NCBI GenBank assembly: GCA_964606485.1
Contig: CAZSGP010000006.1
Coordinates: forward strand, 62,925-126,924
Length of the DNA stretch: 64,000 nt
Direction of reading: 5' to 3'
DNA from: an uncultured Planctomycetia bacterium
Lineage (GTDB): Bacteria > Omnitrophota > Gorgyraeia > 2-02-FULL-51-18
Shown: positions 9,901 through 33,150 of the stretch, in pieces
Numbering within the stretch: the first letter of the stretch is position 1
How the letters are laid out: each line of letters begins with the position of its first letter
Notes under the pieces: model-generated
Told to the model about the DNA's origin: nothing
The model's input: only the letters and a program-made list of their open reading frames with translations
The model's database searches: none
Position numbers and translations under genes: made by a program

Positions 9901-12900
9901 CTGAGCTGTAATCGTGATGCTGAAAGAATCTCCGATTCTATTCCAATTAAGCGCATCGCTCACTTCATCACGTCCATTAATAACCCGAATCGGTTGGAGC
10001 GGCTGCGTGCCGCCCTTCAAAAAGGGTTGCCGCTCATTCTCGGCCTCGAGCGCATCGCGGTACATTTCGGCTTCTTCCGGCGAACGGGTATTGAGCAAAA
10101 TAGGACGACCGGTCTCATAAAACACGCGGATTGCATCCACAAAATGTGCGATCTTTTCTTTTTCGTTTAAAAAATATTCCTCCGGAATGACCGTTCGATT
10201 GTTGGGGTACTTGGGCTTAACTTGCCGAACCGTCGCGCCATAAAGCGCTTCTAAAGCCGCCGCGCGCTTGGAATCTAAAACTCCTATGACTGCGCTGAAC
10301 TCAAGTGTGTTCCTGTAAAAATAATGCGGCGTTAAGAGCTCGCGCGCGACCGCTTCCCCCATAACCTTCTTTCCTTCTTTAATTTCTAAAAAGGGTTGAA
10401 AAAAGCGGATAACACGGTGCTCCTGCCGATCGCCAGTAGATTCGTTTCTGAGCGTAATTTTTTGATCCCATTTACTCGAATGCTTGGCCCGGCTTGTCGA
10501 AAAATATTGTTCACCTTCCTTGTAAAATAATCGCGCTTGTATAGCAATGTCTAAAAGCTCGCGCGGAAACTCGGGGTCTGAATAAAACTTCTGCAAAACG
10601 TCTCTTTTGGACAACTCAGCCAGCTGAGCGCGCCTAGTTTCATCGAGCTCAATGTCAAGTTTTCTCCGAAATTGGCCCTCCTCTTCCACCCAAATGACTT
10701 TTACCTTTCCCTCATCTAAAAGCCGAGTCGCCAATTCATTTACAGCGATATAGATGCCTTTTAAGTCCTCATCCATCTCTTCCGTGGGGTCCGCAAAAAC
10801 GCGAGGCTCATACGCTTCGTCCCAGAGAGGTTCTTCTGCCTCATCTAAAAACACCCACTTTTTTTTGTCAGAACTTTGACTCTTTCCAAAATATTTTAGA
10901 GAGAATCTGTCGATCATATGCCTAAACATAAATTGATCGTAGGTCCCGTGAATAAAATCGGCCTTTCGAGCTAGTTCGGCGCCATTCGTCTCCGTTAAGG
11001 AGGCCGTTTTAAAACCTAGACGATTTAAGATGGCCTCGGCAACCGCTGAATTTCTGGATGCCAGCGGGATATTAAAATCATGTATTTCAACTCGGTAACC
11101 AAAAAGCATTTTTAAATACGCCGCTAGAACCAGCGAAAGTGACTTTCCTTCGGACATTCGCATGGTCACGAGCGCTCGATTCTCTAAGAGAAGTAAAGCC
11201 GCTTCAATTTGTTTCTCGTTAGGAAGACTATTCGGATCGGTGTTTTGATCTCCGATAAACGTCCGTATGGAATCATAATCCAAGCTCTTATCACTCGCCG
11301 TCTTCGCTGCGGCAATTGAAAAAATGGCAATAGCCCAACCTATAAACTCCGGATTTGTTTTTAATGTGGGGTCTGCTTTAAATTTTTCCTGAACCAATGG
11401 ATAAAGTGCTTCGATGGATTCTGGGCCCATATGAGTAAGAGTTTGAATAAATTTTGTTTTATACCTACAAACATCTTCTATGAATTTTTTTTCTTTGCGC
11501 GACCGCAGAGCCGCCTGAGTCTTCCTTAAGAAGCCTTCCGCATCCGATAAGGAATCAATCTCATAAAGCTTTAATTTTTTGTATAAAGTCCTTTGGTCTA
11601 TTCCAAGCCGAATGGCAGCAGCTCCTCTGAAGTCGCCTGTTGAGTATAAAGCCCCGATAATCACCATTTTTTCAAGCTCACGCCACTGCAACACTTCTTG
11701 CTTCGCCATCCACAAATAAGCCGATGAATAATTGACTTCAATTCGCTCACGGGCCGACGCCTGGGAATCCACGCCTTCGACTCGAATCTCGTTGGACACT
11801 CTCTGGGAATCCAACCCCGTACTCAGGGCGGTTCCGCGTATAGATCCGCAATTAGCGTACGCGTTCAAAATAAGCATTTGTTTAACGCGCCTTAAGTTGA
11901 AATCAATATTTTCTGGAAAATTTTCAAGCGGAGCTTCTGGCTTCTCATCAGGAATGATGGACCTTAGATTTTTTAAATCCAGCTTTCCTTTTTCAAAATC
12001 AATTTTATTTTGGAGTGTCTTTAAAAAATCGGAATGCTGTGCGTTCTTCGTTGCCAAAGCTGTCAGGGAATCCATAGTAGGAGCTTGGGCGTCGGTAACC
12101 GCAACTATTTCAATCGTTCCCATTTTTTCTTCAGCTGCGGCAAGTCGCGCGCCGTCAGATCTTATAATCGCAATATTGTGCAAAATTTCCCGAGCGCGTT
12201 TTCTAATTTTTTGAGTATAAATCGTGTCATCTGTTAACCCGCTGATGTCTTGACGAACGGCTTCGGTCAGCTCGTCCATCTGATCTTTTGAAAACAACAA
12301 AGGGTTTGTTAAAAGCATCTGATAGGCCGCTTCCGTCAAATTCCACCGACGGCTCGTATCTCCCATGCTCATCCCTTCGGCCAGATAACGCGATGCCAAG
12401 ACCGCATTGAATATTGAAGTTAATTCTTTTTCCGCCCACTTTTTTTGTGACAAGGGAATAATAATATCGTTGATAAATTTATCCATTTGAAATCCGGATT
12501 GGGATAAATCCCCTTCAGCGTAAGAGCGCTGAATGTTTCTCTTCGTTTTAATATGCCCAAAAGCCACAAAGAGTTTCCCCACTAGATAAAAATTAGTCGG
12601 ATCCGAAAAATCGGTTTCTTTGATGAGAAGTGACGCCACATTCAGCATGGCATACGATGCGCTGAGTGCCAGCGACTCTCTTTTCAGAGGTTCCTCATGA
12701 AGACCCGACCAGTGAATAAAAAACTGATTCCAAATCTCCCTCTTCTGGCTTGTGCTGGCATTTTCCAGCAAGTCATGAAGCGCATCAAAAAAATCAATTC
12801 GAACCTTCTGAATATCGCTGTCGGAGTTATCGTATTTTTTTAAATAGTCGTTCAAAATAATATCGATTTTGGTCGACGCATCGGTTTTCAATCCAACGGT

Positions 12901-14892: not shown

Positions 14893-15073
14893 AATAAATT
14901 TCACCCAATATTTTAAATTAATCTGAACATAAAATTTAACAACGGGTTAAAGTAAAAAGTGCTCGGAAAAGTATGCCTAATCTGCTCAGTAAAATCAAAT
15001 TCGGTTAAAAAAAATTTTTAATCAGAAGTAAGTGAATTTAAGCACAAGTGACTCATTCAAAAAAAATATTGGC

Positions 15074-16111: not shown

Positions 16112-16786
16112 TTATATTCCACTCTTCTTGTATTTGGTCTTATCAAACACGCCGGCGGCAAAGAACGCTTTTTTGCGCTCAATGCACTTATTGCACTCGC
16201 CGCAGTGTTCGTAGCCTTTAGGATTCATGCAGGAAAACGTCGTTTCAAGTGCCAATTTTTTTCCCAAAATAATGACACTTTCTTTTTTGAGAGTTTGAAA
16301 AGGGGCCTTCACCACAATGTCCTTTTTGAGGCCAAGCGAAAGCAGTTCAGACATTTTTTTAAAGAAGGCTTTGCTAGAGTCAGAGAAGGGATTGCCTTTC
16401 AACACGCCGATTTCAATCACTGAAATATCATGCAGTGCGCAATAGACCCCGGCCTTAGACAGTAAAACGATGTTTCGTCCCGGCAAGTACACCGCTTCAT
16501 CGCGAGTCGTAGCCCCCGGAACCTTGATCCCGGTGATGCTCCAGTGATTTTCGTACATATCTTTCATGGTGAGGTCCAAAACTTTAAGCGGCTTCAAATG
16601 AGGCGAACGCAAATGCCGCACGAAATTTTTTAAATGAAAAATTTCGACCGCTTCCCAGCGCAGATGATTTTGCACATAAATCGGCGTGACACTTTCGTAG
16701 CGGCTAAGCGCTTCGTTTAAGAGAACGGAGCTTTCGACTCCGCCGCTAACCAGCACGCATGCGTGTAATTTCTTTTCGTCGCTCAT
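16112..16786 (-). CDS. queC: 7-cyano-7-deazaguanine synthase (QueC family, PP-loop ATPase)
   Basis: CVLVSGGVES PP-loop variant, C-terminal zinc motif CMNPKGYEHCGECNKCIERK. Confidence 0.7.
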   Translation of the reverse strand: MSDEKKLHACVLVSGGVESSVLLNEALSRYESVTPIYVQNHLRWEAVEIFHLKNFVRHLRSPHLKPLKVLDLTMKDMYENHWSITGIKVPGATTRDEAVYLPGRNIVLLSKAGVYCALHDISVIEIGVLKGNPFSDSSKAFFKKMSELLSLGLKKDIVVKAPFQTLKKESVIILGKKLALETTFSCMNPKGYEHCGECNKCIERKKAFFAAGVFDKTKYKKSGI

Positions 16787-17445
16787 GGCTCCTGGAGATG
16801 GTGCTTAATGTTTTTACCTTCTTCAATGAAAATGACGTCTTCGCCGATATTCGTCGCGTGATCCGCAATGCGCTCGATGTTGCGGCTGACTAAAATGAGA
16901 TCCACGGCGCGCGTAATGCTTTTTGGGTCTTCCATCATATACGTCAAAAGCTCACGGAACACCTGATCGTTCAAGCGATCCACCTCGTCGTCGTCTTCAC
17001 AGACGTGTTTAGCGAGTGCCGGATCATGCTGAACAAACGCTTCGATGCTCCCCTTAATCATCCGCTGAGCGAGCATCGCCATTTTGGGAATATCAATCAA
17101 GGGCTTAAGCGGCGGATATTTCAAAAGATCTAGCGCGCGCTCAGCGATATTCACCGACTGGTCAGCCACACGCTCAAGATCGTTGTTAATTTTTAAAATA
17201 GCAGTAAGAAGCCTTAAATCTCTCGCGGCCGGCTGACGAAGCGCCAAAAGCCGCAGGACTTCTTCTTCGATTTCAATTTCCATGTGGTTCACAGAGTCTT
17301 CGAGCTTAAACACTTCCTGCGCGAGCGACTCTTTGCGCTCGACCAGGGATTGCACGCAAATTCCGATCATGCTCTGAGCGGTGTCCGCCATCTGCAGAAG
17401 CTTCTGCTTGAGTAGTCTTAACTCTTCATCAAAATGCCGTTCCAT
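16783..17445 (-). CDS. phoU: Phosphate transport system regulator PhoU
   Basis: 220 aa, two PhoU repeats (..AQEVF..DSVNH.., ..ERIADHATNIGEDV..), position downstream of pstB. Confidence 0.85.
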   Translation of the reverse strand: MERHFDEELRLLKQKLLQMADTAQSMIGICVQSLVERKESLAQEVFKLEDSVNHMEIEIEEEVLRLLALRQPAARDLRLLTAILKINNDLERVADQSVNIAERALDLLKYPPLKPLIDIPKMAMLAQRMIKGSIEAFVQHDPALAKHVCEDDDEVDRLNDQVFRELLTYMMEDPKSITRAVDLILVSRNIERIADHATNIGEDVIFIEEGKNIKHHLQEP

Positions 17446-17475
17446 TGAACCTTCCTTTGTACAAGTTTGGTTATT

Positions 17476-18243
17476 TTACCCCATTCGACCCGTAATGTAA
17501 TCTTCCGTTCTTCTGTCCTTGGGAGCCGTAAAAATGGTTTGAGTCGGACCAAATTCCACTAGCTCTCCTAAAAGCATGTAACCGGTTTCGTCTGAAACCC
17601 GTGCGGCTTGCTGCATATTGTGTGTGACGATGACGATCGTGTAATTTTTTTTGAGTTCCTGCATCAATTCTTCAATGCGAGCCGTCGCCATGGGGTCGAG
17701 TGCGGAACAAGGTTCATCCATCAGCAAAACTTCCGGCTTCACCATCAGTACGCGCGCAATACAAAGCCGTTGCTGCTGCTCCAAAGAAAGGCCGGTCGCC
17801 ATCACATCGAGACGATCTTTTAAATCGTCCCACAAAAGCACCGAGCGCAGGCTCTGCTCCACCACTTGTTCGAGCCACTGCTTGTCTCTTTTATACAAAT
17901 GCTGAATCTTTAACCCAAACACCACGTTTTCAAATACCGACAGCGGAAATGGATTGGGCCGCTGAAACACCATCCCAACTCTCTTTCTAAGGTCCAAGAG
18001 ATCGGTTTGCGCCGCCAGAATATCTTGCCCCTGCAATAAAACACTTCCGTTCGTTCGAACGCCGTCCACCAAATCATTCATGCGGTTAAACACGCGCAGC
18101 AGCGTCGACTTCCCGCAACCCGACGGACCTATGATAGACGTGATCTTATTTTTAGAAATAGCGGAACTAACGTCCTTTAGAGCGTGAAAATTTCCGTAAT
18201 AAAGATTCAGTTTTTTTGTTTCAAGAATTACATTTTCATTCAT
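17476..18243 (-). CDS. pstB: Phosphate ABC transporter ATP-binding protein PstB (copy 1)
   Basis: Walker [13 protein letters not shown] signature [15 protein letters not shown], Walker [12 protein letters not shown], typical PstB N-terminus [15 protein letters not shown]. Confidence 0.9.
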
Positions 18244-18245
18244 CT

Positions 18246-19001
18246 TTAACCGAACCTTCCGGAAATATAATCTTCCGTGCGTTTGTCGGAGGGTGCGGTG
18301 AACATTTTATTGGTCACGTCCATTTCGACGAGTTGCCCCATTAGAAAAAAAGCAGTTTTGTCGCTCACGCGCGCAGCCTGCTTCGTGTTGTTGGTGACGA
18401 GCACGATGGTGTAGCGTTTTTTAAGCTTTCCCATCGCTTCTTCAATTTTCGCGGTGGAAATCGGGTCAAGCGCCGAGCAGGGCTCATCGAACAAAATCAC
18501 GTCCGGCTCTAGCGCCAAAGTGCGTGCAATGCAAAGGCGCTGCTGTTGACCGCCGGAAAGTTTGGTGGCGAGTTCCCCCATGCGGTCTTTGACCTCATCC
18601 CACAGATAAGCGTCTTTTAAGGATTGTTCGGCAATTTCCATTAGCTTCTTTTTGTCATTCATCCCCTGGCGCCGCGGTCCGTACGCCACATTTTCAAATA
18701 CCGTCATGGGAAGCGGCATGGGTAGCGCAAAAATAATTCCCACTTTTCTTCTAAGCAGCACCGCGTCAAGATCCTTATAAATATTTTTCCCATCAAGCAA
18801 CACCTCTCCTTTCATGTGAAAGGTGGAGGTGTTTTCATTCATGCGGTTGAGTGATCGTAAAAAAGTGGTTTTGCCGGAGTTGGCGGGCCCAATCACGCCC
18901 AAAATCTCGTTGGACGGAATGGAAAGCGAAACTCCTCTCAGAGACTGAACCGATCCGAAGCCGACTTCTAAATTACGAACTTCCATTTTGGCCGTTACCA
19001 T
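18246..19001 (-). CDS. pstB: Phosphate ABC transporter ATP-binding protein PstB (copy 2, tandem paralog)
   Basis: GPANSGKTT Walker [16 protein letters not shown] signature, [11 protein letters not shown]. Confidence 0.85.
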
Positions 19002-19849
19002 TTTTTCTTGCTCCTAAAATACGAGCGGATGGTGATGGCAATTAAATTTAAAAATAAAACAATCGATAATAAAACAAGGGCGGTTCCGTAGCGGATTTTT
19101 GGTTCCACATTCGGCACCTGTGTCGACAAAACGTATAAGTGATACGGCAGAGCCATCACCTGATCGAACACGCTGTGCGGCAAACGCGGCAAATAAAATG
19201 CGGCGACGGTAAAAAGAATGGGCGCTGTTTCTCCTGCCGCGCGGCCGATCCCCAAAATCGTTCCGGTGAGAATTCCTGGCAAGGCGTGTGGCAACACCGC
19301 ATAGCGAATAGTTTGGAGCTTGGTGGCCCCCAGTGACTGACTCACCTCCCGAAACGTGCGCGGCACCGAGTCAAGCGCCTCGCGAGACGACGTAATGATC
19401 ACCGGTAAAATCATGACACCCAATGTCAGTGAGCCCGCTAAAATTGACGAACCAAATTTAAAAAAACCAACAAAAAGTGCAAGCCCGAATAATCCATACA
19501 CCACCGACGGCACACCGGCGAGATTGATAATGGCAAGACGAATCACACGGTTTAAAAAATTTTCTTTGGCGTATTCGCTTAGGTAAATTGCCGCGAGGAG
19601 TCCTAGCGGCAACCCCACGCAAAGCGCACCGGTCACAAGACAAAATGTTCCAACAATGGCGGGTAAAATCCCGCCCGCTTTCATGCCGGACTTCGGCATC
19701 TGCGTTAAAAATTCAAGATTAATCGCCGGAAGCCCGTTTTTTAAAATCACAAACAAAACCACGAGCACCGGCAAAATCACCATCACCGAGCAAATCAGTA
19801 AAATCGAGAACGCGATTTTTTGGCTGAGTTTAGGTGAGAGAACTAACAT
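18995..19849 (-). CDS. pstA: Phosphate ABC transporter permease PstA
   Basis: Polytopic permease with EAA-like loop (GATKLQTIRYAVLP) and PstA-type C-terminal block; operon position. Confidence 0.85.
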   Translation of the reverse strand: MLVLSPKLSQKIAFSILLICSVMVILPVLVVLFVILKNGLPAINLEFLTQMPKSGMKAGGILPAIVGTFCLVTGALCVGLPLGLLAAIYLSEYAKENFLNRVIRLAIINLAGVPSVVYGLFGLALFVGFFKFGSSILAGSLTLGVMILPVIITSSREALDSVPRTFREVSQSLGATKLQTIRYAVLPHALPGILTGTILGIGRAAGETAPILFTVAAFYLPRLPHSVFDQVMALPYHLYVLSTQVPNVEPKIRYGTALVLLSIVLFLNLIAITIRSYFRSKKKW

Positions 19850-20716
19850 TTAAATTTTTTTCCGGTGTAGAAAAATGTCTGCGGTGATGTTCACGGCAAA
19901 CGTCATTAAGAATAAAACGATTCCGATCGAAAAAAGTGCGAAGTAGTGATCGCTTCCCTGCACGGTCTCACCCATTTCCGCGGCAATCGTCGCGGTCAGT
20001 GTGCGGACTGGAAACAAAAACCCACGCGGCATCGACGGCGAGTTTCCGGTAATCATCATCACCGCCATGGTTTCTCCGACCACACGGCCGATCCCGAGCA
20101 TCACCGCCGCTACAATTCCGGACGACGCCGCCGGCAAAATAACACGGCAAATGGTTTGCCACTGCGTAGCACCTAGTGCGTAAGCGCCTTCTTTGTAGGA
20201 CTTCGGTACCGAGTGAAGCGCATCTTCCGCAATCGACACAATGGTCGGCATGGCCATGAACGCTAAAATGATGGAGCCTGAAAGCGCCGTAAGCCCCGTC
20301 GGGGTTTTAAAAATAAGTCTCACCCACGGCACAATTGTCACCATGCCGATAAATCCGAGCACCACGCTCGGAATAGCCGCTAAAAGCTCCACGCCTGATT
20401 TTAAAATTTCTTTTAGGTTTTTAGGAGCGACTTCCGAGATGTACACCGCACAGGCAATTCCGAGAGGAATCGCGATGATCGACGCGCCAAGGGTCACAAG
20501 GAGCGATCCTAAAATTAGAGGAAGAATTCCAAATTCGGCGGGCTCTGAAATGGGGTACCAGCTTTTTCCGCCTAGAAAATGACCCAAGCTTTCGGTTTTG
20601 AAAAGCTGGATTCCTTCTTTTAAAAGAAAAAGAAAGATCAGCGTCACAAAGAGAATGGACGCGAAGCCGCTGGCCTTGATTAGAGATTCAAAAAAGAATT
20701 CTTTAAAACGCTTCAC
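19850..20716 (-). CDS. pstC: Phosphate ABC transporter permease PstC
   Basis: Polytopic permease, YALGATQWQTICRVILP EAA loop, adjacent to pstS/pstA. Confidence 0.85.
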   Translation of the reverse strand: MKRFKEFFFESLIKASGFASILFVTLIFLFLLKEGIQLFKTESLGHFLGGKSWYPISEPAEFGILPLILGSLLVTLGASIIAIPLGIACAVYISEVAPKNLKEILKSGVELLAAIPSVVLGFIGMVTIVPWVRLIFKTPTGLTALSGSIILAFMAMPTIVSIAEDALHSVPKSYKEGAYALGATQWQTICRVILPAASSGIVAAVMLGIGRVVGETMAVMMITGNSPSMPRGFLFPVRTLTATIAAEMGETVQGSDHYFALFSIGIVLFLMTFAVNITADIFLHRKKI

Positions 20717-21580
20717 TTATTTTTTAACGGGAACAAAATCCGTTTTTTCGACAATCACTTGGCCTTCAGGAGACAACGCAAAATCCAAAAACTTTTGAAC
20801 CTCAACCTTCGGCTCGCCATTGGTGTAAAAATAAAGCGGCCGCGAGATCGGATATTTCCCGCTGATCACGTCAGCAATCGAGGGCGATACAAATTCAGAA
20901 CTGGCATCCTTAGCAACTGCAATCGCTTTATGGTCTTTTCCAATGTAGCCCATGCCGTAATAACCAATCGCATCGGCGTTTTGCAAAATTTCATCGGCGA
21001 TCGCTTGGCTGGAGGGCAAAAGCAAGGCTTCGGGTGAAAATTCTTCCTTAGAAGAAGCGTCGTTCTTTCTCAAAACATGCTCTTTGAAATAAACATGTGT
21101 TCCAGAGTTGACTTCGCGGGAAAGGAGCACGATTTTAGCGTCGTTTCCCCCGACCTCTTTCCAATTTTTAATCTTCCCCGTAAAAATTCCAGCCAACTCT
21201 TCCATCGTTAACTTTGAAATAGGGTTTTTTGGACTCACCACCACCGCTAGGCCGTCGAGCGCAACTTTGTATTCTTTGGGAGAAACTTTTTTTTGATTGG
21301 CCAGATCAATCTCTTTCGGCTTCATTTCACGGGAGCTAGCCGCAATATCGCAACTGGAGCCAATCAGCGCCGCAATTCCGGTTCCAGAACCACCACCAGT
21401 GACGGCAATAAAAATTTCAGGCTGTTTTTCCATGAACACTTCCGACCAGGCCTGAACCAAATTGACCATGGTGTCCGAACCTTTAATTTGAATAGAATTG
21501 GGTTTGGCCGCAAAAGCGCCTGGGGTATTTAAAACGAGTGTAGCGAAACCTAGAACTAAACCAGCGATCAATTTCTTCAT
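20717..21580 (-). CDS. pstS: Phosphate-binding periplasmic protein PstS
   Basis: Signal peptide, IKGSDTM ... AVTGGGSGTG motif of PstS/PBP superfamily. Confidence 0.85.
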   Translation of the reverse strand: MKKLIAGLVLGFATLVLNTPGAFAAKPNSIQIKGSDTMVNLVQAWSEVFMEKQPEIFIAVTGGGSGTGIAALIGSSCDIAASSREMKPKEIDLANQKKVSPKEYKVALDGLAVVVSPKNPISKLTMEELAGIFTGKIKNWKEVGGNDAKIVLLSREVNSGTHVYFKEHVLRKNDASSKEEFSPEALLLPSSQAIADEILQNADAIGYYGMGYIGKDHKAIAVAKDASSEFVSPSIADVISGKYPISRPLYFYTNGEPKVEVQKFLDFALSPEGQVIVEKTDFVPVKK

Positions 21581-21611
21581 GGATTCCTCCTCTATGCGAA
21601 GACTCTATTCT

Positions 21612-21640
21612 ATGAAGAAATTATGAAGATTTGATGAAGA
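21612..21640 (-). promoter_or_regulatory. Pho box: three direct TCTTCAT repeats (gene strand) at exact 11-bp periodicity, 32-60 bp upstream of pstS start
   Basis: Forward-strand ATGAAGA at 21612, 21623 and 21634 (7-bp repeat + 4-bp spacer), the PhoB-type direct-repeat architecture; phoB and phoR are encoded just upstream. Confidence 0.7.
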
Positions 21641-21642
21641 CG

Positions 21643-22761
21643 CTACCGGAGAGGGAGTTCAATTTTAAACGTCGATCCTTGGCCCTCTTGGCTTTCGACG
21701 CTCAAGCGGCCGCCCTGCTTTTCAACCATGTGCTTGGCAATGGAAAGACCAAGCCCCGTGCCACCGGTCTCACGTGAGCGGCTCTTGTCGGCACGGTAAA
21801 AACGCTCAAAAATGTGGGGCAGATCCGCGCTCGAAATACCGATACCCGTATCTTTCACGAGAATTTGGAAAACATCCGTCTTTGCGTTTAGCTCGATCGC
21901 AATAGACCCGCCCTCTTTGTTATAGTTCACCGCATTCGCAAGAATGTTGGTCAATACTTGCTCAAGCAGCGTTCTGTCAGTGTTCACCCAGAAAGGGTGG
22001 TTATCCGTTCGGATATGAAATCGAATTTTTCTGATCTTCATTTGTGGTGCGAGGCTTTCCGAAAGATTATGAACCAGTGCTTCGAGATCTATTTTTTCCA
22101 GTCGAACGGGAATTTCGGCAGACTCAAGTTTCGAAAGCAAGAGCAAATCTTCAATGAGACGATGGAGTTTGTGCGAATGTTCTTCAATCACGTTTAAAAA
22201 TTTCATCCGGTTTTCGACGTCATCGACTGCACCTTCTTTAAGCGTCTCGACAAATCCCAGAATGGACGTGAGCGGGGTTTTGAGTTCGTGTGAAACGTTC
22301 GCTACAAATTCCGAACGCATTCGCTCTAAATTTTTAAGGCGTGTCACATCATGAAAAACAGCGATCGCCCCCAGAAATTCGCTGTCACTGGCCACCGGCG
22401 ACAGGTGTACCTGAAAAACCAGATCGGAAAGTTGAATTTTATGCTCTTTTTCAAAATGTACTTTTTCTTCAAGCACGCGGCGGATCATGGCATTGAGCTC
22501 CGAGTCACGAAACACTTCCCAGTAATCGCGGCCAATCACATTTTCCTTCTTAAATTCGAGTGACTCACATAAAACGGAGTTGATAAGAAGAATTTTTTGG
22601 TTCGCGTCGATGACCACGACGCCCTCGGCCATGCTCTCCAAAATAGCTAAAAGCCGCTCGTTCTCCCGGGATGTTTTTTGAAAAAGATCGCGTAGATCAG
22701 TGAGCTCTTGAGGCAACGAACTCTTTGAATGAGAAGAAAGTGGATTTTTTTTAAACCACAT
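21643..22761 (-). CDS. phoR: PhoR-like sensor histidine kinase (PAS + HisKA + HATPase); no N-terminal transmembrane segments apparent
   Basis: H-box SHELKTPLTSILGF, N/G1/G2 boxes (NAVNYN, VKDTGIGI, GGTGLGLSI), adjacent to phoB. Confidence 0.8.
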   Translation of the reverse strand: MWFKKNPLSSHSKSSLPQELTDLRDLFQKTSRENERLLAILESMAEGVVVIDANQKILLINSVLCESLEFKKENVIGRDYWEVFRDSELNAMIRRVLEEKVHFEKEHKIQLSDLVFQVHLSPVASDSEFLGAIAVFHDVTRLKNLERMRSEFVANVSHELKTPLTSILGFVETLKEGAVDDVENRMKFLNVIEEHSHKLHRLIEDLLLLSKLESAEIPVRLEKIDLEALVHNLSESLAPQMKIRKIRFHIRTDNHPFWVNTDRTLLEQVLTNILANAVNYNKEGGSIAIELNAKTDVFQILVKDTGIGISSADLPHIFERFYRADKSRSRETGGTGLGLSIAKHMVEKQGGRLSVESQEGQGSTFKIELPLR

Positions 22762-23449
22762 TGGCTTCAGAAAACCGGTAACCGGTGCCGCGCACGGTTT
22801 CGATCAAATCACGGTATTTGCCGAGTTTTTTTCGTAAGCTTTTGATGTGCACGTCTACCGTGCGGTCCACCACAAATGCCTCACCCTGCCAGGCGCCACT
22901 CAAGAGTTGGTCACGCGAAAATGCCTTACCGCGATTTTCCATAAGATACGCTGCAATATTAAACTCCAACTTTGTGAGGGGAACGGGTTTTCCCTTAATC
23001 GAAAAAATCATTTTTTCGCGATCAACTTCAAGCGGTCCTGCCGAAATAATTTTTTTAGGTTCTCCTGATGGAGCGCTTTGATTTCGAAAGATATTTTTTA
23101 TACGCGCCAAGAGAACTTTTACACTAAATGGCTTCGAAACATAGTCCGTCGCACCAATTTCAAGACCGACCACCTGGTCAATCTCACTCCCCTTGGCGGT
23201 AAGCATTACGACCGGGATACGCTTAGTCGCCGATTGCGCCCGCAAAAGCCTGCACACTTCAAGGCCGTCCATTTTGGGGAGCATAAGATCCAAAATAATG
23301 AGATCGGGTTTCTTGGCTTGAGCAATCTCCAGGCCGGCTTCTCCGGTTTCAGCGGTGAAAACGCTGTAGCCTTCTTTTTCGAGATTGTACTGCAGGAGTT
23401 TTAGAATATCCTTTTCGTCATCAATGACTAAAAGGTTTTTTTTAGCCAT
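22751..23449 (-). CDS. phoB: OmpR-family response regulator, PhoB-like
   Basis: Receiver domain (LLVIDDEKD, DLIILDLMLP, K in LTAKG) plus winged-helix C-terminal DNA-binding domain (RTVDVHIKSLRKKL). Confidence 0.85.
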   Translation of the reverse strand: MAKKNLLVIDDEKDILKLLQYNLEKEGYSVFTAETGEAGLEIAQAKKPDLIILDLMLPKMDGLEVCRLLRAQSATKRIPVVMLTAKGSEIDQVVGLEIGATDYVSKPFSVKVLLARIKNIFRNQSAPSGEPKKIISAGPLEVDREKMIFSIKGKPVPLTKLEFNIAAYLMENRGKAFSRDQLLSGAWQGEAFVVDRTVDVHIKSLRKKLGKYRDLIETVRGTGYRFSEANVV

Positions 23450-23451
23450 GG

Positions 23452-24150
23452 TTATTTCTTGGGCTTGTCGAGAATGTCTTTGACCTTCTGGCGGATATTT
23501 TCATGAATCACGTCTACCGTTTGGCGCGCATCCACTACTTCAAATCCAAATTCCTTGGCGAGTTTGTCGTAATGCGTGATCAGCGTCGATTGGTAATTCA
23601 CAAAACTGTCGAAAAGATCCTGGCCCATGTGAAGATCCATGCCGGCTTCCCAGTAATTCATGCCACCGGACTCAATCACGCGTGGAATCAGCGCTTCGAT
23701 ATCAAGCTTAAGATAAACCGTGAGATCCGGAACAAGGCCAAATCCAAAAAGATTCCGCACCCACTGTTGGTTCGGGTCCCGCACAGCGTCGCGCACGATA
23801 GCCGTATAAATGTAGCGGTCCGCCAAAACAATGTGGCCCGATTTAAGAGCTGGGATAATCTGATTTTCCAATCGATCCGCAAAATCCGTGGCATACAGTA
23901 ACGTAAACGTCATGCGGTCCATCATGTTGCCGGCTTTGGCCATTTCGATGGATTTGCTCATCAAATTTGAGCGCGTCCAGCCGGTTTCTGCGACAGCATA
24001 CCCTTGGACCTCAAGCCATGATTTTAAAAGATCCACCTGAGTCGAGCGGCCCGATCCATCGGTGCCTTCGATGCAGATGAGCTTTCCTTTTAACTTGTAC
24101 GGCTTAAGATACGGTAAACCTTCGCCAAAATACTTTGGGTCGTTTGGCAT
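23452..24150 (-). CDS. Thymidylate kinase family protein (Tmk-like, first of tandem pair; P-loop GTDGSGRST)
   Basis: IEGTDGSGRSTQ P-loop, DRY-type motif LADRYIYT, LID region; the 47-nt overlap with the upstream paralog suggests the true start is downstream of the track start. Confidence 0.65.
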   Translation of the reverse strand: MPNDPKYFGEGLPYLKPYKLKGKLICIEGTDGSGRSTQVDLLKSWLEVQGYAVAETGWTRSNLMSKSIEMAKAGNMMDRMTFTLLYATDFADRLENQIIPALKSGHIVLADRYIYTAIVRDAVRDPNQQWVRNLFGFGLVPDLTVYLKLDIEALIPRVIESGGMNYWEAGMDLHMGQDLFDSFVNYQSTLITHYDKLAKEFGFEVVDARQTVDVIHENIRQKVKDILDKPKK

Positions 24151-24832
24151 AAATCGTCCTTTTCTTCGAGTAACCTTTGAGAATGTCTTTGACGTATCCG
24201 CGCATCAGGTCCTGTTGTTCATGAATTTCCTGAGTGGCGTCCATCGAGGTCAAATCAAACTCCCCCACCATCTTGGAATATTCGTCGAGAATCTTGGATT
24301 GGAAAATTTTGAAGCTCTCGCGGATATCGGTGTGAAGATTCAAGTCCATTCCCGCTTCGTAAAATTTAATTTGAGCGCGATTCGTCAAGATCCGCTCGCA
24401 AGCAACTTGAATCGGCACGTTGAAATAAAAACTGATGTCCGGCTTTACTGCAAAATTGTATAAATTCCGTACCCAGCGAGCGTCTACTCCGCGGACCACG
24501 TCGCGCGCAAACGCGGTGTAAGCATAGCGATCGGCAAGCACTATCATGCCGGCTTTGAGCGGCGGGATAATTTGATAATTTAAACGGTCTGCAAAATCAG
24601 CGGCGTGCAAAAGAGAAAAGGTGCTAGGGGTAAGAATATTTTTCTTTTTTCCCTCACGGGTCGTTTCCTTCACAAGTTCCGAACTATTCCACTCGGTGAA
24701 GAAAACCGAAAAACCCTGGGATTCGAGCCATTTCTTGAGAAGCCCGACCTGCGTGCTCTTTCCTGAACCGTCGATCCCCTCGACGATAATCAACTTTCCT
24801 GGAAATTCGTGTTTTTTATCAAAGACGCCCAT
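24104..24832 (-). CDS. Thymidylate kinase family protein (Tmk-like, second of tandem pair)
   Basis: VEGIDGSGKSTQ P-loop, LADRYAYT, same fold as neighbour. Confidence 0.7.
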   Translation of the reverse strand: MGVFDKKHEFPGKLIIVEGIDGSGKSTQVGLLKKWLESQGFSVFFTEWNSSELVKETTREGKKKNILTPSTFSLLHAADFADRLNYQIIPPLKAGMIVLADRYAYTAFARDVVRGVDARWVRNLYNFAVKPDISFYFNVPIQVACERILTNRAQIKFYEAGMDLNLHTDIRESFKIFQSKILDEYSKMVGEFDLTSMDATQEIHEQQDLMRGYVKDILKGYSKKRTIYAKRPKVFWRRFTVS

Positions 24833-24841
24833 GGCCGAATT

Positions 24842-25810
24842 TTACCACACTTTCTGATGAGTCTTAATTTTGTGAATAAAGTCTAAAATCATGCCTTCCC
24901 GAATGCCTTGGGTCGACACTGTGAGCGAACGAATTTTAAGCGCCTTCATCAACGTCTTCACCATCACGCATCCGGCAATCATGATATCGGCGCGTTTTTT
25001 GTCAAGCTCCGGAAATTGAAGACGTTTCTTTAAGCTTAAAACTGAAATTTTCTTGTAAACACTTTCAACATCCTCTAAATACATTTCGTAATGATTAGCG
25101 CAGTCGAGCGGGCGCTTTTCGGAGTCGAAATAAACCGCGTAAGCCAGGTTCACCATCGTCCCGGCAGTCCCAATCACTCTTAAAAATCCGTGCTTACGGA
25201 TTTTCCGGATGGCCGGTTTAATTTCTTCCAGAATATGCCGCTCCAAGCGGCGGATCTCGCCGGGCGTCGGCGGATCTTTCTTAAAATAAAGATCAGTTAA
25301 GCGCGCAACTCCAAGCGGAAAGCAGTTGTTGACGAGAATTTGTTTTTTATTCCCGAGCACGAGTTCCATGCTCCCGCCGCCGATGTCGATGGTGAGCACA
25401 TTTCCCTTTTGAATATCGCGCCGCGAGTGGGACGCCAAAAAAACAAGCCGGCCCTCTTCTTCGCCTGAAATAATCCGGACCTTCACCTTCGTTTTCTTAA
25501 AAATATCAAAAATGAACTCCGGGCCGTTCTGCGCTTCACGGACAGCGCTCGTCGCCACGCCAATCATTTGAACCGCCTGATATTTCTTGGCAATCTTATG
25601 AAATTTTTTAATTGCCTTAAACGCGCGCGCTTTACGCGCTTTGTCCAAAAAATGGTCTTTAAAGCTTCCGTCGCCTAATCGCGTCGTGTCTTTTTCGTGA
25701 TCGATGATCAAGTGTGAACCATCCACATGAATTTCAGCAATCAGCATGTGAATGGTGTTGGTGCCAATGTCAAAAACAGCAATTCTCATGTTTTTAAGTG
25801 TATCGGACAT
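24842..25810 (-). CDS. ppx: Exopolyphosphatase / guanosine pentaphosphate phosphohydrolase (Ppx/GppA family)
   Basis: RIAVFDIGTNTIHMLIAE ... VIGTAGTM actin-like ATPase-fold motifs of Ppx/GppA; the true start is probably the internal Met (MRIAVFD) because the track start abuts the Pho box. Confidence 0.75.
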   Translation of the reverse strand: MSDTLKNMRIAVFDIGTNTIHMLIAEIHVDGSHLIIDHEKDTTRLGDGSFKDHFLDKARKARAFKAIKKFHKIAKKYQAVQMIGVATSAVREAQNGPEFIFDIFKKTKVKVRIISGEEEGRLVFLASHSRRDIQKGNVLTIDIGGGSMELVLGNKKQILVNNCFPLGVARLTDLYFKKDPPTPGEIRRLERHILEEIKPAIRKIRKHGFLRVIGTAGTMVNLAYAVYFDSEKRPLDCANHYEMYLEDVESVYKKISVLSLKKRLQFPELDKKRADIMIAGCVMVKTLMKALKIRSLTVSTQGIREGMILDFIHKIKTHQKVW

Positions 25811-25813
25811 CTA

Positions 25814-25831
25814 TGAAGATTTGATAAAGAA
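25814..25831 (-). promoter_or_regulatory. Pho box-like pair of direct repeats (TCTTCAT / TCTTTAT on gene strand, 11-bp spacing) upstream of ppx
   Basis: Forward ATGAAGA at 25814 and ATAAAGA at 25825; the same word as in the pstS Pho box. Confidence 0.5.
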
Positions 25832-25833
25832 GC

Positions 25834-26331
25834 TCACGCCATTTCGCGCAGCTGCGAATTGGTCAAAAGCCATTTGAGCTCGCCGCGAACCCCCGCCTCA
25901 GGGCCGGGCAAGTCCACTCGGCAAAGACCGCCCTTTTTAAAATCAATGGTGAGCGCCGGCTCTCCAAAAACAAAAGCACTCACAAACTCTCCAAGACTTG
26001 GCTGATGCCCAACGATTAAAAGCTTACTTTTGTTTGGAAAATTTTTGAGGAGCTTTAGAAGTTCTTTGGGGCTTCCGCTTGGAACCAAGCAGTCTTCGTA
26101 TTGAATCGGGTGGGTAAAATCTAGGGCGCGAGCGGCAATTTCAGCCGTCTGTGATGCTCGCTTGTAGGGGCTCGAAAGAATCGCTTCTGGGGCAATCTCC
26201 ATTTGCTTCATGCCCTTAGCTGCTTTTTTCATTTTCTCGACACCCTCGTCGGTTAGAGGGCGTTCAGAATCTCTTCCCTCAAACTCGCCATTTTCCTTGG
26301 CAATAGCGTGTCTTAAAAAATAAAGTTCCAT
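25834..26331 (-). CDS. Histidine phosphatase superfamily protein, SixA-like phosphohistidine phosphatase
   Basis: MELYFLRHAIA (RHG-type motif), 165 aa, VGHQPSL second motif. Confidence 0.6.
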   Translation of the reverse strand: MELYFLRHAIAKENGEFEGRDSERPLTDEGVEKMKKAAKGMKQMEIAPEAILSSPYKRASQTAEIAARALDFTHPIQYEDCLVPSGSPKELLKLLKNFPNKSKLLIVGHQPSLGEFVSAFVFGEPALTIDFKKGGLCRVDLPGPEAGVRGELKWLLTNSQLREMA

Positions 26332-26362: not shown

Positions 26363-27094
26363 ATGCAACTTAATGGAAAAACAGCGCTTGTCACGGGTGC
26401 CGCTAAGCGGGTCGGACGCGAAATTGCACTCATTCTCGCCCAAAACGGGGCAAACATTTTGCTGCACTACAACCAGTCCCAATCGGACGCAGAGAAAACC
26501 GCGGCGGAAATCCAATCGCTCGGCGCGCTCTGCAAAATTTATCAAGCCGATTTGGAAGACGTGGGTGCACTTTCAAAAATGATGCTCCTGATCGAAAAAG
26601 AAAATCCGCATGTCGATATTCTGGTCAACAGCGCATCCATCTTTTATAAAACTCCACTCGAACAGGCCTCTGAAACTGATCTCGATACCTTCACCGACAT
26701 TCATCTCAAAGCGCCTTTTCTTTTGTCTAAAAAATTTGGACTTAAAATGATTGAAAATGGCTCAGGAAAAATCATCAACATCGTCGACTGGAGCGCTTAC
26801 CGCCCCTACAAAGATTACGCGCCCTACTGCGCGTCAAAGGGCGCGCTTTTAACGCTAACGAAAGCACTCGCACGCGATTTAGCACCTCAGGTGCTCGTCA
26901 ACGCCGTCGCCCCCGGCCCCGTTCTTTTACCAGAAGATTTCACCGAGGAAGAAAAACAGGTTGTCGTCAAAAAAACACTGCTCGGCCGCGTTGGCTCACC
27001 CGCTGACATTGCAAACGCCGTCCTCTTCTTACTTGAAAATGATTTCATTAACGGAACCGTGCTGACAGTAGACGGTGGGAGATCGATCGTTTAG
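26363..27094 (+). CDS. Short-chain dehydrogenase, pteridine reductase-like (PTR1/FolM family)
   Basis: TALVTGAAKRVGREIAL..LLHY closely resembles the PTR1/FolM TGAAKRLG..HY signature; catalytic YCASKGAL (YxxxK). Confidence 0.65.
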   Translation: MQLNGKTALVTGAAKRVGREIALILAQNGANILLHYNQSQSDAEKTAAEIQSLGALCKIYQADLEDVGALSKMMLLIEKENPHVDILVNSASIFYKTPLEQASETDLDTFTDIHLKAPFLLSKKFGLKMIENGSGKIINIVDWSAYRPYKDYAPYCASKGALLTLTKALARDLAPQVLVNAVAPGPVLLPEDFTEEEKQVVVKKTLLGRVGSPADIANAVLFLLENDFINGTVLTVDGGRSIV

Positions 27095-27127
27095 AATCTA
27101 AACCACCTCCCCGGCACTTCGTGTCCA

Positions 27128-27209
27128 CCCCTCCTTGGTAAGGAGGGGAAAGTAGCGCGGGTTTCCTCCCCTTACCAAGGGGAGGTGTCCCCCACGTTCT
27201 TTGGGGGAC
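27128..27209 (+). promoter_or_regulatory. Three consecutive GC-rich stem-loops in the leader of the queD/PTPS-like gene (possible attenuator/riboswitch-like element or terminator array)
   Basis: Hairpin 1 CCCCTCCTT-GGT-AAGGAGGGG (27128-27148); hairpin 2 CCTCCCCTT-ACC-AAGGGGAGG (27165-27185); hairpin 3 GTCCCCCA-CGTTCTT-TGGGGGAC (27187-27209). Arms of 1 and 2 are near-complementary to each other, allowing alternative pairings; GGAGG tracts are sequestered; there is no U-tract. Confidence 0.55.
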
Positions 27210-27231
27210 GGAGGGGTGAAACGGAGAACCG

Positions 27232-27633
27232 ATGTACACAGTCATTAAAGAAATCCATTTTTGTTACGGCCACCGCCTCATGAATTATGACGGCAAGTGC
27301 GCCCACCCTCACGGCCACAATGGCCGTGTCGATGTCGAACTCACCTCCAACAAGCTAGACAATCGCGGCATGGTCTTTGATTTTGGCGACATGAAAAAAA
27401 TTGTGCAGGCGTGGATCAATGAAAAGCTGGACCATCAGATGATTTTAAAAAAGGGCGACCCGCTTGTGGCGGTGCTCAAAAAAATGAATGAGCCTTATTT
27501 TGAAATGGACGAAAATCCTACCGCGGAAAGCCTGGCGAAACTGATTTTTAAATACGCCAAGTCAAAAAAATTACCTGTCTCGAAAATTACTTTCTGGGAA
27601 ACGCCGAGTTCGTCAGCGAGTTACGCGGAGTAA
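27232..27633 (+). CDS. queD: 6-carboxytetrahydropterin / 6-pyruvoyl-tetrahydropterin synthase family (QueD/PTPS)
   Basis: CxxxHGH motif (CAHPHGHNGRVDV), catalytic Glu/His region, 133 aa. Confidence 0.75.
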   Translation: MYTVIKEIHFCYGHRLMNYDGKCAHPHGHNGRVDVELTSNKLDNRGMVFDFGDMKKIVQAWINEKLDHQMILKKGDPLVAVLKKMNEPYFEMDENPTAESLAKLIFKYAKSKKLPVSKITFWETPSSSASYAE

Positions 27634-32221: not shown

Positions 32222-33150
32222 TTAAGACCTAAGTTCCCCGCTCTTATGCCCACTGATCAAGACATCGCTCGGAGCGGTTCCGGTGGGAATGGTTTGAAGC
32301 ACGCTGTCCTTGTTTAAATCAATCAGGCTGACATTGGATGACAGTTGATTCGTCACATAAGCCTTGTTTCCTTCGGGAGTGATGGTGATTCCCATGGGCC
32401 GGGTCCCCACCTGAATGCGGGCTCTCTCCTCAAAATTTTTAAGATTGATCACGGAGATGGTGTTGTCGTTGCGGTTTGAGACAAGCAGAGTTGATTCCTT
32501 AGGATCAATTTCAATGGCATAGGGGCCATCTCCTACTTTGATTTCTTTTAGGAGATCTCCAGATTGGGTGTCGAGCGCTTTGAGAACTCCTTTGGAATAA
32601 TCGGTGACGTAAAGTGTTTTTTCATCTCTTGAAAGGTGAAGCCCCAAAGGTTGGTCGCCCGCTTTGAAGGTATTCATAATATTCCCAGATTTGGTGTCCA
32701 TTTTTGAAACCGTACCATCTAGCGTATTGGAAATAAAAAGCGTGTCTCCAGATTGAGTCATGGCCGCTTTCAAGGGCATTGAGCCATGTGTTGGAAAATT
32801 TTGGGTTTTTGAGGTCGCAAGATCCAGCACTTCAACGCTGTCGGTGAGTGAATTCGTCACATAAGCTTTCTGTTCGTCAGGGCTCAAAACCGCGTTGGAA
32901 GAACCTTCTGAAAATACGGTCTTTGATTTGGTATTAAAAGTATTGGTGTCAATTGAAGAAACTTTTCCATTTTGAGAGAAGAGATACACTTTATCGCTTT
33001 TTTTTGCGGCAACCAGATCCGCAGGAGCTTCTTTTATTGAAATATCTTGAATAGAGTCATTCACCTTTGCGCGCTTCACGTTCAGTCCGTCTTTAGTCAG
33101 GACGTAGACACCTCTCATATTGAGAGAAGTCTGAGAGGATAAAGGTTTCT
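32222..33150 (-). other. YVTN-family beta-propeller at C-terminus of the TpsA-like exoprotein
   Basis: Four or more YVTN-type repeats. Confidence 0.55.

What the first reader, a model, noticed from the sequence alone, without database searches (positions are those of the whole stretch)
21581..21642. Textbook Pho box (3 x TCTTCAT at 11-bp period) upstream of pstS
On the gene strand the pstS leader reads CTTCATcaaaTCTTCATaattTCTTCATagaa, three 7-bp direct repeats separated by 4 bp at exact 11-bp phasing. This is the geometry bound by PhoB dimers/oligomers, and it ends about 32 bp upstream of the start codon, where a -35 element would sit. phoB/phoR lie 1 kb upstream.
Basis: partly seen in the sequence, partly recalled or inferred. 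Interest (0 to 1): 0.5.

Follow-up and report, generated by a model that had tools for sequence, protein, structure and literature searches.

The report
Pho box promoter upstream of pstS
Three identical 7-base repeats spaced one DNA turn apart in front of a phosphate-uptake operon are almost certainly the docking site of the neighbouring PhoB-type regulator; this is an ordinary phosphate-starvation switch, found here in an uncultured bacterium with a slightly different recognition sequence.

Summary
TCTTCAT occurs three times at an exact 11-bp period on the gene strand (21640-21612). It lies in the 62-bp gap between a PhoR/PnpS-like kinase gene and pstS-pstCA-pstBB-phoU. A weight matrix built only from relatives finds three outlier hits in the 64-kb window. 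Two overlap at pstS; the third is a second site (TCTTTATcaaaTCTTCAT, 25830-25813) in front of ppx-tmk-tmk-phoB-phoR. Among pstS loci of related uncultured bacteria, 11-bp-periodic direct repeats are strongly enriched. In the closest relatives, CTTCAY arrays sit before ppx and before porin/pstS, and are missing where no uptake gene follows the kinase. Arrays end 10 nt before a TAnnnT -10 hexamer, as in E. coli. In the window this rule holds only if repeats 1-2 form the activating Pho box (TAGAAT, 21612-21607). Repeat 3 then fills the spacer and touches the -10, so its role is unclear. The regulator keeps PhoB's DNA-contact residues except Arg201 (here Ser), which fits the missing G in the half-site. 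This is a new member of a known kind, of low to moderate interest.

The parts
21634..21640 (-). Repeat 1, TCTTCAT (upstream half of the proposed activating Pho box)
   Evidence: Sequence; weight-matrix dimer score 22.5 against a shuffled maximum of 16.1
21623..21629 (-). Repeat 2, TCTTCAT (downstream half of the proposed activating Pho box; ends 10 nt before TAGAAT)
21612..21618 (-). Repeat 3, TCTTCAT, in phase. It lies in the spacer between the Pho box and the -10 and shares its last T with TAGAAT; role uncertain
   Evidence: Ten nt after repeat 3 is CTTCGC, which is not a -10. Relatives have T/C-rich spacers there (TTTCTT).
21607..21612 (-). Putative -10 hexamer TAGAAT (inferred)
   Evidence: It is the only TAnnnT in the register that 37 of 85 arrays in relatives obey. 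No consensus -35/-10 pair was found in this gap.
21585..21590 (-). Shine-Dalgarno GGAGGA of pstS
   Evidence: Sequence
20717..21580 (-). pstS (phosphate-binding protein with a signal peptide)
   Evidence: TIGR02136, 258.5 bits against a cutoff of 206.6
16783..20716 (-). pstC, pstA, pstB, pstB, phoU (the rest of the transport operon)
   Evidence: NCBIfam equivalogs, all above their cutoffs
21643..22761 (-). PhoR/PnpS-like histidine kinase (PAS-HisKA-HATPase, no membrane segment)
   Evidence: NF046044 PnpS, 401.9 bits against a cutoff of 400; TIGR02966 PhoR, 315.5 bits, below its cutoff of 334.2; Pfam domains; hydropathy
22751..23449 (-). PhoB-like response regulator, the presumed binder of the repeats
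   Evidence: Best NCBIfam hit is TIGR02154 PhoB (235 bits, below the cutoff of 296.2). Recognition helix DRTVDVHIKSLRKKL and wing TVRGTGYRFS align to E. coli PhoB structures 1GXP and 3T72.
25813..25830 (-). Second Pho box, TCTTTATcaaaTCTTCAT, in the 23-bp gap between sixA and ppx
   Evidence: 1 mismatch; weight-matrix score 20.7
25797..25802 (-). Putative -10 hexamer TACACT of the ppx-tmk-tmk-phoB-phoR operon, 10 nt after the second Pho box (inferred)
   Evidence: It lies 7 nt before ATG 25789, so the ppx transcript may be leaderless.
24842..25810 (-). ppx (exopolyphosphatase); the true start is probably ATG 25789
   Evidence: TIGR03706, 256.9 bits; Pfam Ppx-GppA. Homologue alignments begin at residues 6-8.
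23452..24832 (-). Two overlapping thymidylate-kinase-like genes lying between ppx and the regulator gene
   Evidence: PF02223; synteny conserved in at least 14 loci

Best explanation
The repeats are a Pho box, the binding site of the phosphorylated PhoB-type regulator encoded 1.1 kb upstream. When phosphate is scarce, the PAS-domain kinase phosphorylates the regulator. Regulator dimers then bind head-to-tail to successive 11-bp units (TCTTCAT plus a 4-bp A/T-rich linker). Repeats 1-2 sit where a -35 element would be, 10 bp upstream of a TAGAAT -10, and recruit sigma-70 RNA polymerase to transcribe pstS-pstC-pstA-pstB-pstB-phoU from about position 21600. A second, two-unit box before ppx drives ppx-tmk-tmk-phoB-phoR, which gives positive autoregulation and read-through into pstS. 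Shown here: the repeats, their conservation, their phase relative to the -10, their restriction to phosphate-related operon heads, and the PhoB-like DNA-reading head. Inferred: binding, activation, the transcription start sites, and any role for repeat 3.
For: The repeats are exact at an 11-bp period. A weight matrix built only from relatives gives window scores of 22.5 and 22.4 at pstS and 20.7 at ppx. The next hit scores 14.9, and the shuffled maximum is 16.1. All three top hits are intergenic and on the gene strand. Of 77 pstS upstream regions, 25 have an exact 7-mer pair at period 11 (shuffled mean 0.7), against 0-1 at periods 9, 10, 12 and 13. In relatives that share the ppx-tmk-tmk-RR-HK synteny, CTTCAY arrays occur before ppx and after the kinase gene, before a Porin_5 gene or pstS. 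Core-pair hits number 36 on the gene strand and 9 on the opposite strand. The array after the kinase gene is present in 6-7 of 7 loci where a porin or pstS gene (or an unannotated stretch) follows. It is absent in all 9 loci where phoU or queC follows directly. In 37 of 85 arrays a TAnnnT hexamer lies exactly 10 nt after the last unit; other spacings score 0-15. This is the E. coli rule, Pho box 10 bp upstream of a TAN3T -10 (PMC1906773). No consensus sigma-70 -35/-10 pair is found in the gap, as expected for an activator-dependent promoter. The regulator's effector domain aligns to E. coli PhoB, with Thr194, Val197 and Arg219 conserved and Arg201 replaced by Ser. In PhoB, Arg201 hydrogen-bonds the guanine of the half-site (PMC3973317, citing Blanco 2002), and that guanine is absent from TCTTCAT.
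Against: There are no experimental data: no transcription start site, no binding assay, no expression data. The regulator scores below NCBIfam's PhoB equivalog cutoff (235 against 296). Repeat 3 does not fit the 10-nt rule; the hexamer 10 nt after it is CTTCGC. A protomer bound at repeat 3 would overlap the extended -10 and -10 region, which is not the arrangement in relatives. There is no terminator between phoR and pstS, so pstS could be expressed by read-through alone. Only 64 kb of this genome is available, so the regulon-wide test is partial.
Confidence: 0.85

Rival explanations
1. The array binds the regulator, but repeat 3 makes it a dual-function site. At moderate regulator levels, repeats 1-2 activate. 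At high levels a further protomer or dimer occupies repeat 3, over about -18 to -12, and competes with sigma, capping pstS expression.
For: Repeat 3 is a perfect copy, in phase, and overlaps the only plausible -10. Relatives never have a strong unit at this position; their last unit ends 10 nt before the -10.
Against: Relatives have a T/C-rich spacer at the same place (cggcTTTCTT-TAGAAT in L094, gggaTTTCTT-TAGACT in L096). Much of repeat 3 could therefore be spacer composition plus the T of the -10. PhoB-family proteins bind as dimers to pairs of units, and no partner unit follows repeat 3 (TAGAGTC).
Confidence: 0.15
2. The array is a relic. A rearrangement that removed the porin gene, and with it the original fourth unit and -10, left three units without a working promoter. 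pstS is then transcribed only by read-through from the ppx promoter.
For: In L083, L089 and L094 the array after the kinase gene has four units and precedes a Porin_5 gene (confirmed by Pfam in L083 and L089). The first 22 nt of the L083 array are identical to the window's. In the window, the position equivalent to the L083 -10 is occupied by the ribosome-binding site. No terminator separates phoR from pstS.
Against: Three perfect units argue against decay. TAGAAT lies exactly 10 nt after repeat 2, as in the two-unit pstS promoters of L001 (TAAAAT) and L027 (TATCTT). The remaining 20-nt leader has a strong Shine-Dalgarno sequence.
Confidence: 0.1
3. The repeats are bound by a different OmpR-family regulator encoded elsewhere in the genome, not by the adjacent one.
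For: The adjacent regulator is below the PhoB equivalog cutoff, and the rest of the genome is unseen.
Against: Arrays and the regulator-kinase pair travel together in relatives. The half-site type tracks the recognition helix of the adjacent regulator: Ser at position 201 with CTTCAY, Thr with TTTTACA, Arg with G-containing units. The adjacent operons are the canonical Pho regulon core.
Confidence: 0.04
4. The repeat is a chance or slippage product with no function.
For: Short tandem arrays do occur elsewhere in the window.
Against: Only 1 of 300 simulated windows has any exact triple. A second site lies before ppx. Register and position are conserved across dozens of relatives.
Confidence: 0.01

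Closest known systems
Escherichia coli Pho box (PhoB sites at pstS, phoA, phoB; consensus CTGTCAT-A(AT)A(TA)-CTGT(CA)A(CT))
   Same: Both have direct repeats of 7 bp plus a 4-bp A/T-rich linker at an 11-bp period. Both lie 10 bp upstream of a TAnnnT -10 and replace the -35. Both occur before pstS and before the regulator's own operon. Thr194, Val197, Arg219 and the wing of the regulator are conserved (PMC3465305, PMC1906773, PMC3973317).
   Different: The half-site is TCTTCAT rather than CTGTCAT, with no guanine, and the guanine-reading Arg201 is Ser. A third perfect unit intrudes into the spacer and -10. The kinase has no membrane segment. phoBR sits directly upstream of pstS in one gene string.
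Bacillus subtilis PhoP boxes (TT(A/T/C)ACA repeats at an 11-bp period) and Streptococcus pneumoniae PnpRS-pst
   Same: Both use G-less, T-rich direct repeats at an 11-bp period (from my own knowledge of the B. subtilis literature). The pst operon has two pstB genes. The kinase passes NCBIfam's PnpS model.
   Different: The unit here is CTTCAY, not TTTACA; TTTTACA is used by more distant Omnitrophota-labelled relatives. The organism is not a Firmicute. No teichoic-acid link is seen.
Cyanobacterial SphR Pho boxes (CTTAACCT, at least three tandem units)
   Same: Three or more tandem units at an 11-bp period lie before pst operons. The consensus varies by lineage while the DNA-binding domain is conserved (PMC1906773).
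   Different: The unit sequence differs. Some relatives (L014, L079, L080) do use CTTAAC-like units, but the window does not.
Streptomyces coelicolor PhoP 11-nt direct repeat units
   Same: Sites are arrays of a variable number of 11-nt units, and unit number and position modulate the output (PMC2275107, abstract).
   Different: The Streptomyces consensus is different, and no sequence similarity to it was tested here.

Membership tests
Pho box (PhoB/PhoP-type activator site) | At least two direct repeats at an 11-bp period, each 7 conserved bp plus a 4-bp A/T-rich linker | tested here: met
   Three exact TCTTCAT units with linkers caaa, aatt and agaa. The triple is unique in the window.
Pho box (PhoB/PhoP-type activator site) | Site lies 10 bp upstream of a TAN3T -10 and replaces the -35 | tested here: inconclusive
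   The feature is met in silico for repeats 1-2 (TAGAAT, 21612-21607) and for the ppx site (TACACT). It is not met if repeat 3 is taken as the last unit (CTTCGC). No consensus -35 is present. No transcription start data exist.
Pho box (PhoB/PhoP-type activator site) | Recurs upstream of several phosphate-starvation operons and not elsewhere | tested here: met
   Within the window, the only above-noise hits are before pstS and before ppx...phoBR. No other phosphate-starvation genes were recognised in the window. Relatives carry arrays before ppx, porin and pstS. A whole-genome test is not possible.
Pho box (PhoB/PhoP-type activator site) | Match to the E. coli consensus CTGTCAT | tested here: not met
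   Only TCAT is shared (4 of 7 positions per unit, 11 of 18 per dimer). This consensus defines the enterobacterial box, not the class.
Pho box (PhoB/PhoP-type activator site) | Bound by the phosphorylated regulator; transcription induced by phosphate limitation | not testable with these tools
   Needs gel-shift or footprinting assays and expression data.
PhoB (NCBIfam TIGR02154 equivalog) | Whole-protein score at or above the curated cutoff | tested here: not met
   235.1 bits against a cutoff of 296.2. PhoB is nevertheless the best-scoring family.
PhoB (functional class) | DNA-contact residues of the E. coli PhoB effector domain (Thr194, Val197, Arg201, Arg219, wing) | tested here: inconclusive
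   DRTVDVHI and TVRGTGYRFS are identical. Arg200 is Lys and Arg201 is Ser. The change at 201 parallels the loss of G in the half-site (PMC3973317).
PhoR / PnpS histidine kinase | NCBIfam cutoffs; PAS-HisKA-HATPase architecture; N-terminal membrane anchor | tested here: inconclusive
   PnpS scores 401.9 bits, just above its cutoff of 400. PhoR TIGR02966 scores 315.5 bits, below 334.2. The domains are present. No membrane segment is present.
PstSCAB-PhoU transporter operon | All subunits present above equivalog or subfamily cutoffs | tested here: met
   PstS family 258.5, PstC 301.6, PstA 293.8, PstB 348.4 and 379.1, PhoU 227.4 bits.

The most novel reading that the evidence does not exclude
This lineage carries a natural specificity-switched PhoB (Arg201 to Ser) that reads a guanine-free half-site, CTTCAY. 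Across related uncultured lineages, the residue at position 201 co-varies with the half-site: Arg with G-containing units, Ser with CTTCAY, Thr with TTTTACA. In this genome a third perfect unit placed over the -10 would turn the pstS Pho box into a self-limiting activator/repressor site.
Probability: 0.15. Interest if true: 0.45.

Novelty: new member of a known kind. Interest (0 to 1): 0.25.

Why it matters
The result gives a ready-made, testable Pho-regulon motif (unit NCTTCAY plus an A/T-rich linker, with the last unit 10 nt before the -10). It applies to an uncultured lineage whose closest public relatives are metagenome bins labelled Candidatus Omnitrophota or Planctomycetia. With this motif, phosphate-starvation genes could be predicted from metagenomes. 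The set of related loci also forms a small natural series. The PhoB recognition helix and its half-site appear to change together, while the promoter geometry (11-bp period, 10 nt to the -10) stays fixed. Beyond that, this is the expected regulatory element in the expected place.

Tried and rejected
- **RNA elements.** An Rfam gathering-threshold scan of the whole window found nothing, so there is no riboswitch or leader RNA in the gap.
- **Consensus promoter.** The consensus sigma-70 scan found no promoter in the pstS gap. I read this as activator dependence, not as absence of a promoter.
- **Alternative -10 hexamers.** TAGAGT (21607-21602) and the hexamer 10 nt after repeat 3 (CTTCGC) were considered. 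The first is out of register with the rule obeyed in relatives, and the second is not -10-like.
- **Inverted copy at the pstS start.** An inverted TCTTCAT at 21574-21580 is ATGAAGA, the Met-Lys start of pstS, read on the other strand. Next to it, TCCTCCT is the complement of the ribosome-binding site. This pair did not rank among the top weight-matrix hits and is treated as coincidence.
- **Weak pattern matches.** The matches with 3 mismatches elsewhere in the window nearly all lie inside coding regions or score within the shuffled range.
- **Organism identity.** The exact PstS sequence is on record in a single Logan contig only. The best relatives in reference genomes are at most 72% identical. 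Taxonomy is therefore only approximate.
- **Covariation of residue 201 with the half-site G.** Support is limited to two Arg-bearing loci (L043, L028). The register in L028 is ambiguous by 1 nt, so this is a lead, not a result.
- **Literature.** Searches found no paper on Pho regulation in Omnitrophota.
- **Circularity in one check.** The stringent weight-matrix scan of the metagenome loci is partly circular, because some of its units came from those loci. Only its strand and position pattern is used.

Full report
**Observation**

On the - strand, the 62-bp gap between the stop codon of a histidine-kinase gene (TAG, 21645-21643) and the pstS start (ATG, 21580) reads cg-TCTTCAT-caaa-TCTTCAT-aatt-TCTTCAT-agaatagagtcttcgcataGAGGAGGAatcc. 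The three 7-mers lie at 21640-21634, 21629-21623 and 21618-21612. They are identical, directly repeated and exactly 11 bp apart, and their linkers are A/T-rich. Tandem Repeats Finder reports the array. It is the only exact 7-mer triple at this period in the window. Only 1 of 300 first-order Markov simulations of the window contained any such triple.

**Gene context**

Reading along the - strand, the gene string is as follows:
- sixA-like phosphatase (26331-25834)
- ppx (25810-24842)
- two overlapping thymidylate-kinase-like genes (24832-23452)
- an OmpR/PhoB-family response regulator (23449-22751)
- a PAS-HisKA-HATPase kinase (22761-21643)
- pstS, pstC, pstA, pstB, pstB and phoU (21580-16783)
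- a QueC-like gene

The transporter proteins and PhoU all pass their NCBIfam cutoffs. PhoB is the regulator's best family, but it scores below the equivalog cutoff (235 against 296 bits). The kinase just passes the PnpS model (401.9 against 400) and falls below the PhoR model. Gaps between genes are tiny or negative from ppx to the kinase. No terminator-like site separates the kinase gene from pstS.

**A second site in the window**

The dimer pattern with at most one mismatch occurs at only two places in 64 kb: the pstS array, and TCTTTATcaaaTCTTCAT at 25830-25813. The second site sits in the 23-bp gap between sixA and ppx.

I built a weight matrix from 54 units taken only from relatives and scanned both strands of the window. 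The top three hits score 22.5 and 22.4 (pstS) and 20.7 (ppx). The next hit scores 14.9, and the best score in 20 shuffled windows was 16.1. The rest of the window holds no other recognisable phosphate-starvation genes. The motif is therefore present at both phosphate-related operon heads and nowhere else.

**Relatives**

The exact PstS sequence is on record in one Logan contig only. The nearest reference-genome loci are at most 72% identical and come from metagenome bins labelled Candidatus Omnitrophota or uncultured Planctomycetia.
- **Period-11 enrichment.** Of 77 pstS upstream regions (the window plus 76 relatives), 25 have an exact 7-mer pair at period 11. The shuffled mean is 0.7, and periods 9, 10, 12 and 13 give 0-1. 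The half-site differs by lineage: TCTTCAT or CTTCAC in the window's closest relatives, TTTTACA in most Omnitrophota-labelled bins, and TTGTCAC or CTTAACA in others.
- **Synteny and array positions.** A metagenome scan with one of the kinase-like genes returned 33 loci. At least 14 of them share the ppx-tmk-tmk-regulator-kinase order. In these, arrays of three or four CTTCAY units sit before ppx. They also sit just after the kinase gene, before a Porin_5 gene that precedes pstS, or before pstS itself.
- **Strand bias.** Core-pair hits number 36 on the gene strand against 9 on the other strand.
- **Presence/absence.** The array after the kinase gene is present in 6-7 of 7 loci where a porin or pstS gene (or an unannotated stretch) follows. 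It is absent in all 9 loci where phoU or queC follows directly. The array therefore belongs to the downstream uptake genes, not to the 3' end of the kinase gene.

**Promoter geometry**

Across all arrays found, 37 of 85 have a TAnnnT hexamer exactly 10 nt after the last unit; every other spacing from 4 to 16 nt gives 0-15. This is the arrangement described for E. coli, with Pho boxes 10 bp upstream of a TAN3T -10 (PMC1906773).

The window's ppx site obeys the rule. TACACT (25802-25797) lies 10 nt after the second unit and 7 nt before ATG 25789. Homologue alignments indicate that this ATG is the real ppx start, so the ppx transcript may be leaderless.

The pstS site obeys the rule only if repeat 2 is the last activating unit. 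TAGAAT (21612-21607) lies 10 nt after repeat 2, whereas the hexamer 10 nt after repeat 3 is CTTCGC. Two-unit pstS promoters of the same form exist in L001 and L027. On this reading repeats 1-2 sit at about -40 to -23 and replace the -35. The hexamer at the canonical -35 distance is ATCAAA (3 of 6 matches), and no consensus promoter is detected. Repeat 3 spans about -18 to -12 and donates the first T of the -10. The predicted start near 21600 leaves a 20-nt leader with a strong ribosome-binding site.

Relatives often have a T/C-rich spacer at the position of repeat 3 (TTTCTT before TAGAAT or TAGACT). Repeat 3 may therefore be partly a matter of spacer composition, and its function is open.

**The regulator**

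The effector domain aligns to the E. coli PhoB structures 1GXP, 1QQI and 3T72. The recognition helix reads DRTVDVHIKSLRKKL, against DRTVDVHIRRLRKAL in PhoB, and the wing TVRGTGYRFS is identical.

In the PhoB-DNA crystal structure, Arg201 hydrogen-bonds a guanine. Thr194 and Val197 contact thymines, and Arg219 reads bases between the half-sites (PMC3973317, citing Blanco et al. 2002). Here Thr194, Val197 and Arg219 are kept and Arg201 is Ser, while the half-site has T where E. coli has G (TCTTCAT against CTGTCAT).

Among relatives, regulators with Ser at this position go with CTTCAY units and those with Thr go with TTTTACA. The two with Arg (L043, L028) go with G-containing units. This is suggestive only: the sample is small and the register in L028 is ambiguous by 1 nt.

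**Mechanism**

The best-supported account is the standard one. Under phosphate limitation, the kinase phosphorylates the regulator. Regulator dimers bind head-to-tail to units 1-2 and recruit RNA polymerase to a promoter that lacks a -35, switching on pstSCABB-phoU. The ppx box does the same for ppx-tmk-tmk-phoB-phoR. That gives positive autoregulation and, with no terminator in between, read-through into pstS. The sequence features, their conservation and their phase are shown. Binding, induction and start sites are inferred. I put confidence in this account at 0.85.

The rivals are:
- a brake function for repeat 3 (0.15; compatible with the main model);
- a relic array with pstS expressed only by read-through (0.10);
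- a different regulator (0.04);
- chance (0.01).

**Comparison and novelty**

In geometry and context this is a Pho box; in sequence it is a lineage variant. I found no paper on Pho regulation in these uncultured groups. Lineage-specific Pho-box consensus sequences, however, are well known from Bacillus, cyanobacteria and Streptomyces (PMC1906773, PMC2275107). It is a new member of a known kind, and interest is low to moderate (0.25). The most novel reading not excluded is a co-evolved Arg201Ser/G-to-T specificity switch combined with a self-limiting third unit (probability about 0.15).

Noticed in passing
window 1-14946 (- strand): A single stop-free reading frame of at least 4982 codons runs off the start of the window, so a giant gene is present. 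Its families were not examined.
   Followed up: partly
window 32222-37615, 44746-50247, 58437-63821 (all - strand): Three ORFs of about 1800 aa each. One has a TPS secretion domain plus a beta-propeller, one has HEAT repeats plus an OEP segment, and one has HTH_3 plus a receiver domain. The first two show no similarity to each other.
   Followed up: partly
window 23452-24832 (- strand); L083-L102: Two overlapping thymidylate-kinase-like genes lie between ppx and the Pho regulator gene. The order ppx-tmk-tmk-RR-HK is conserved in at least 14 metagenome loci. One copy has a normal Walker A motif (GIDGSGKST). The other has Arg in place of the Walker lysine (GTDGSGRST). They may form a Pho-controlled kinase/pseudokinase pair of unknown substrate.
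   Followed up: partly
window 21643-22761 (- strand): The PhoR/PnpS-like kinase has no hydrophobic segment (maximum 19-residue hydropathy 1.42). There is no room for a longer N-terminus, because the gene overlaps the regulator gene by 11 nt. The L083 orthologue has a clear N-terminal membrane helix (3.16).
   Followed up: partly
window 25789-25810; 25797-25802: The ppx ORF can start at ATG 25810, but homologues and the NCBIfam profile align from Met8 (ATG 25789). The putative -10 TACACT ends 7 nt before that ATG and no Shine-Dalgarno sequence is present, which suggests a leaderless ppx mRNA.
   Followed up: partly
L083, L089, L094, L003, L004 versus the window, L009, L095: The uptake cassette between the kinase gene and phoU varies among relatives. 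Some have porin plus pstSCAB, some have pstSCAB only (the window), and some have nothing, with phoU or queC following the kinase gene directly. The repeat array is gained or lost together with the cassette.
   Followed up: yes
L001-L080 pstS upstream regions: The half-site of the 11-bp-periodic arrays differs between lineages (CTTCAY, TTTTACA, TTGTCAC, CTTAACA). The 11-bp period and the 10-nt distance to TAnnnT are kept throughout. The residue equivalent to PhoB Arg201 varies in parallel.
   Followed up: partly
window 25835-25850 (- strand): A weak terminator-like hairpin with a T-rich tail lies at the very end of sixA, immediately upstream of the ppx Pho box. It could insulate the ppx operon from sixA transcription.
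   Followed up: no
window 16112-16786 (- strand): A QueC-like gene overlaps the end of phoU by 4 nt and follows phoU in several relatives. It scores below the QueC equivalog cutoff (84 against 150 bits). QueD-like and pteridine-reductase-like genes lie nearby at 26363-27633.
   Followed up: no
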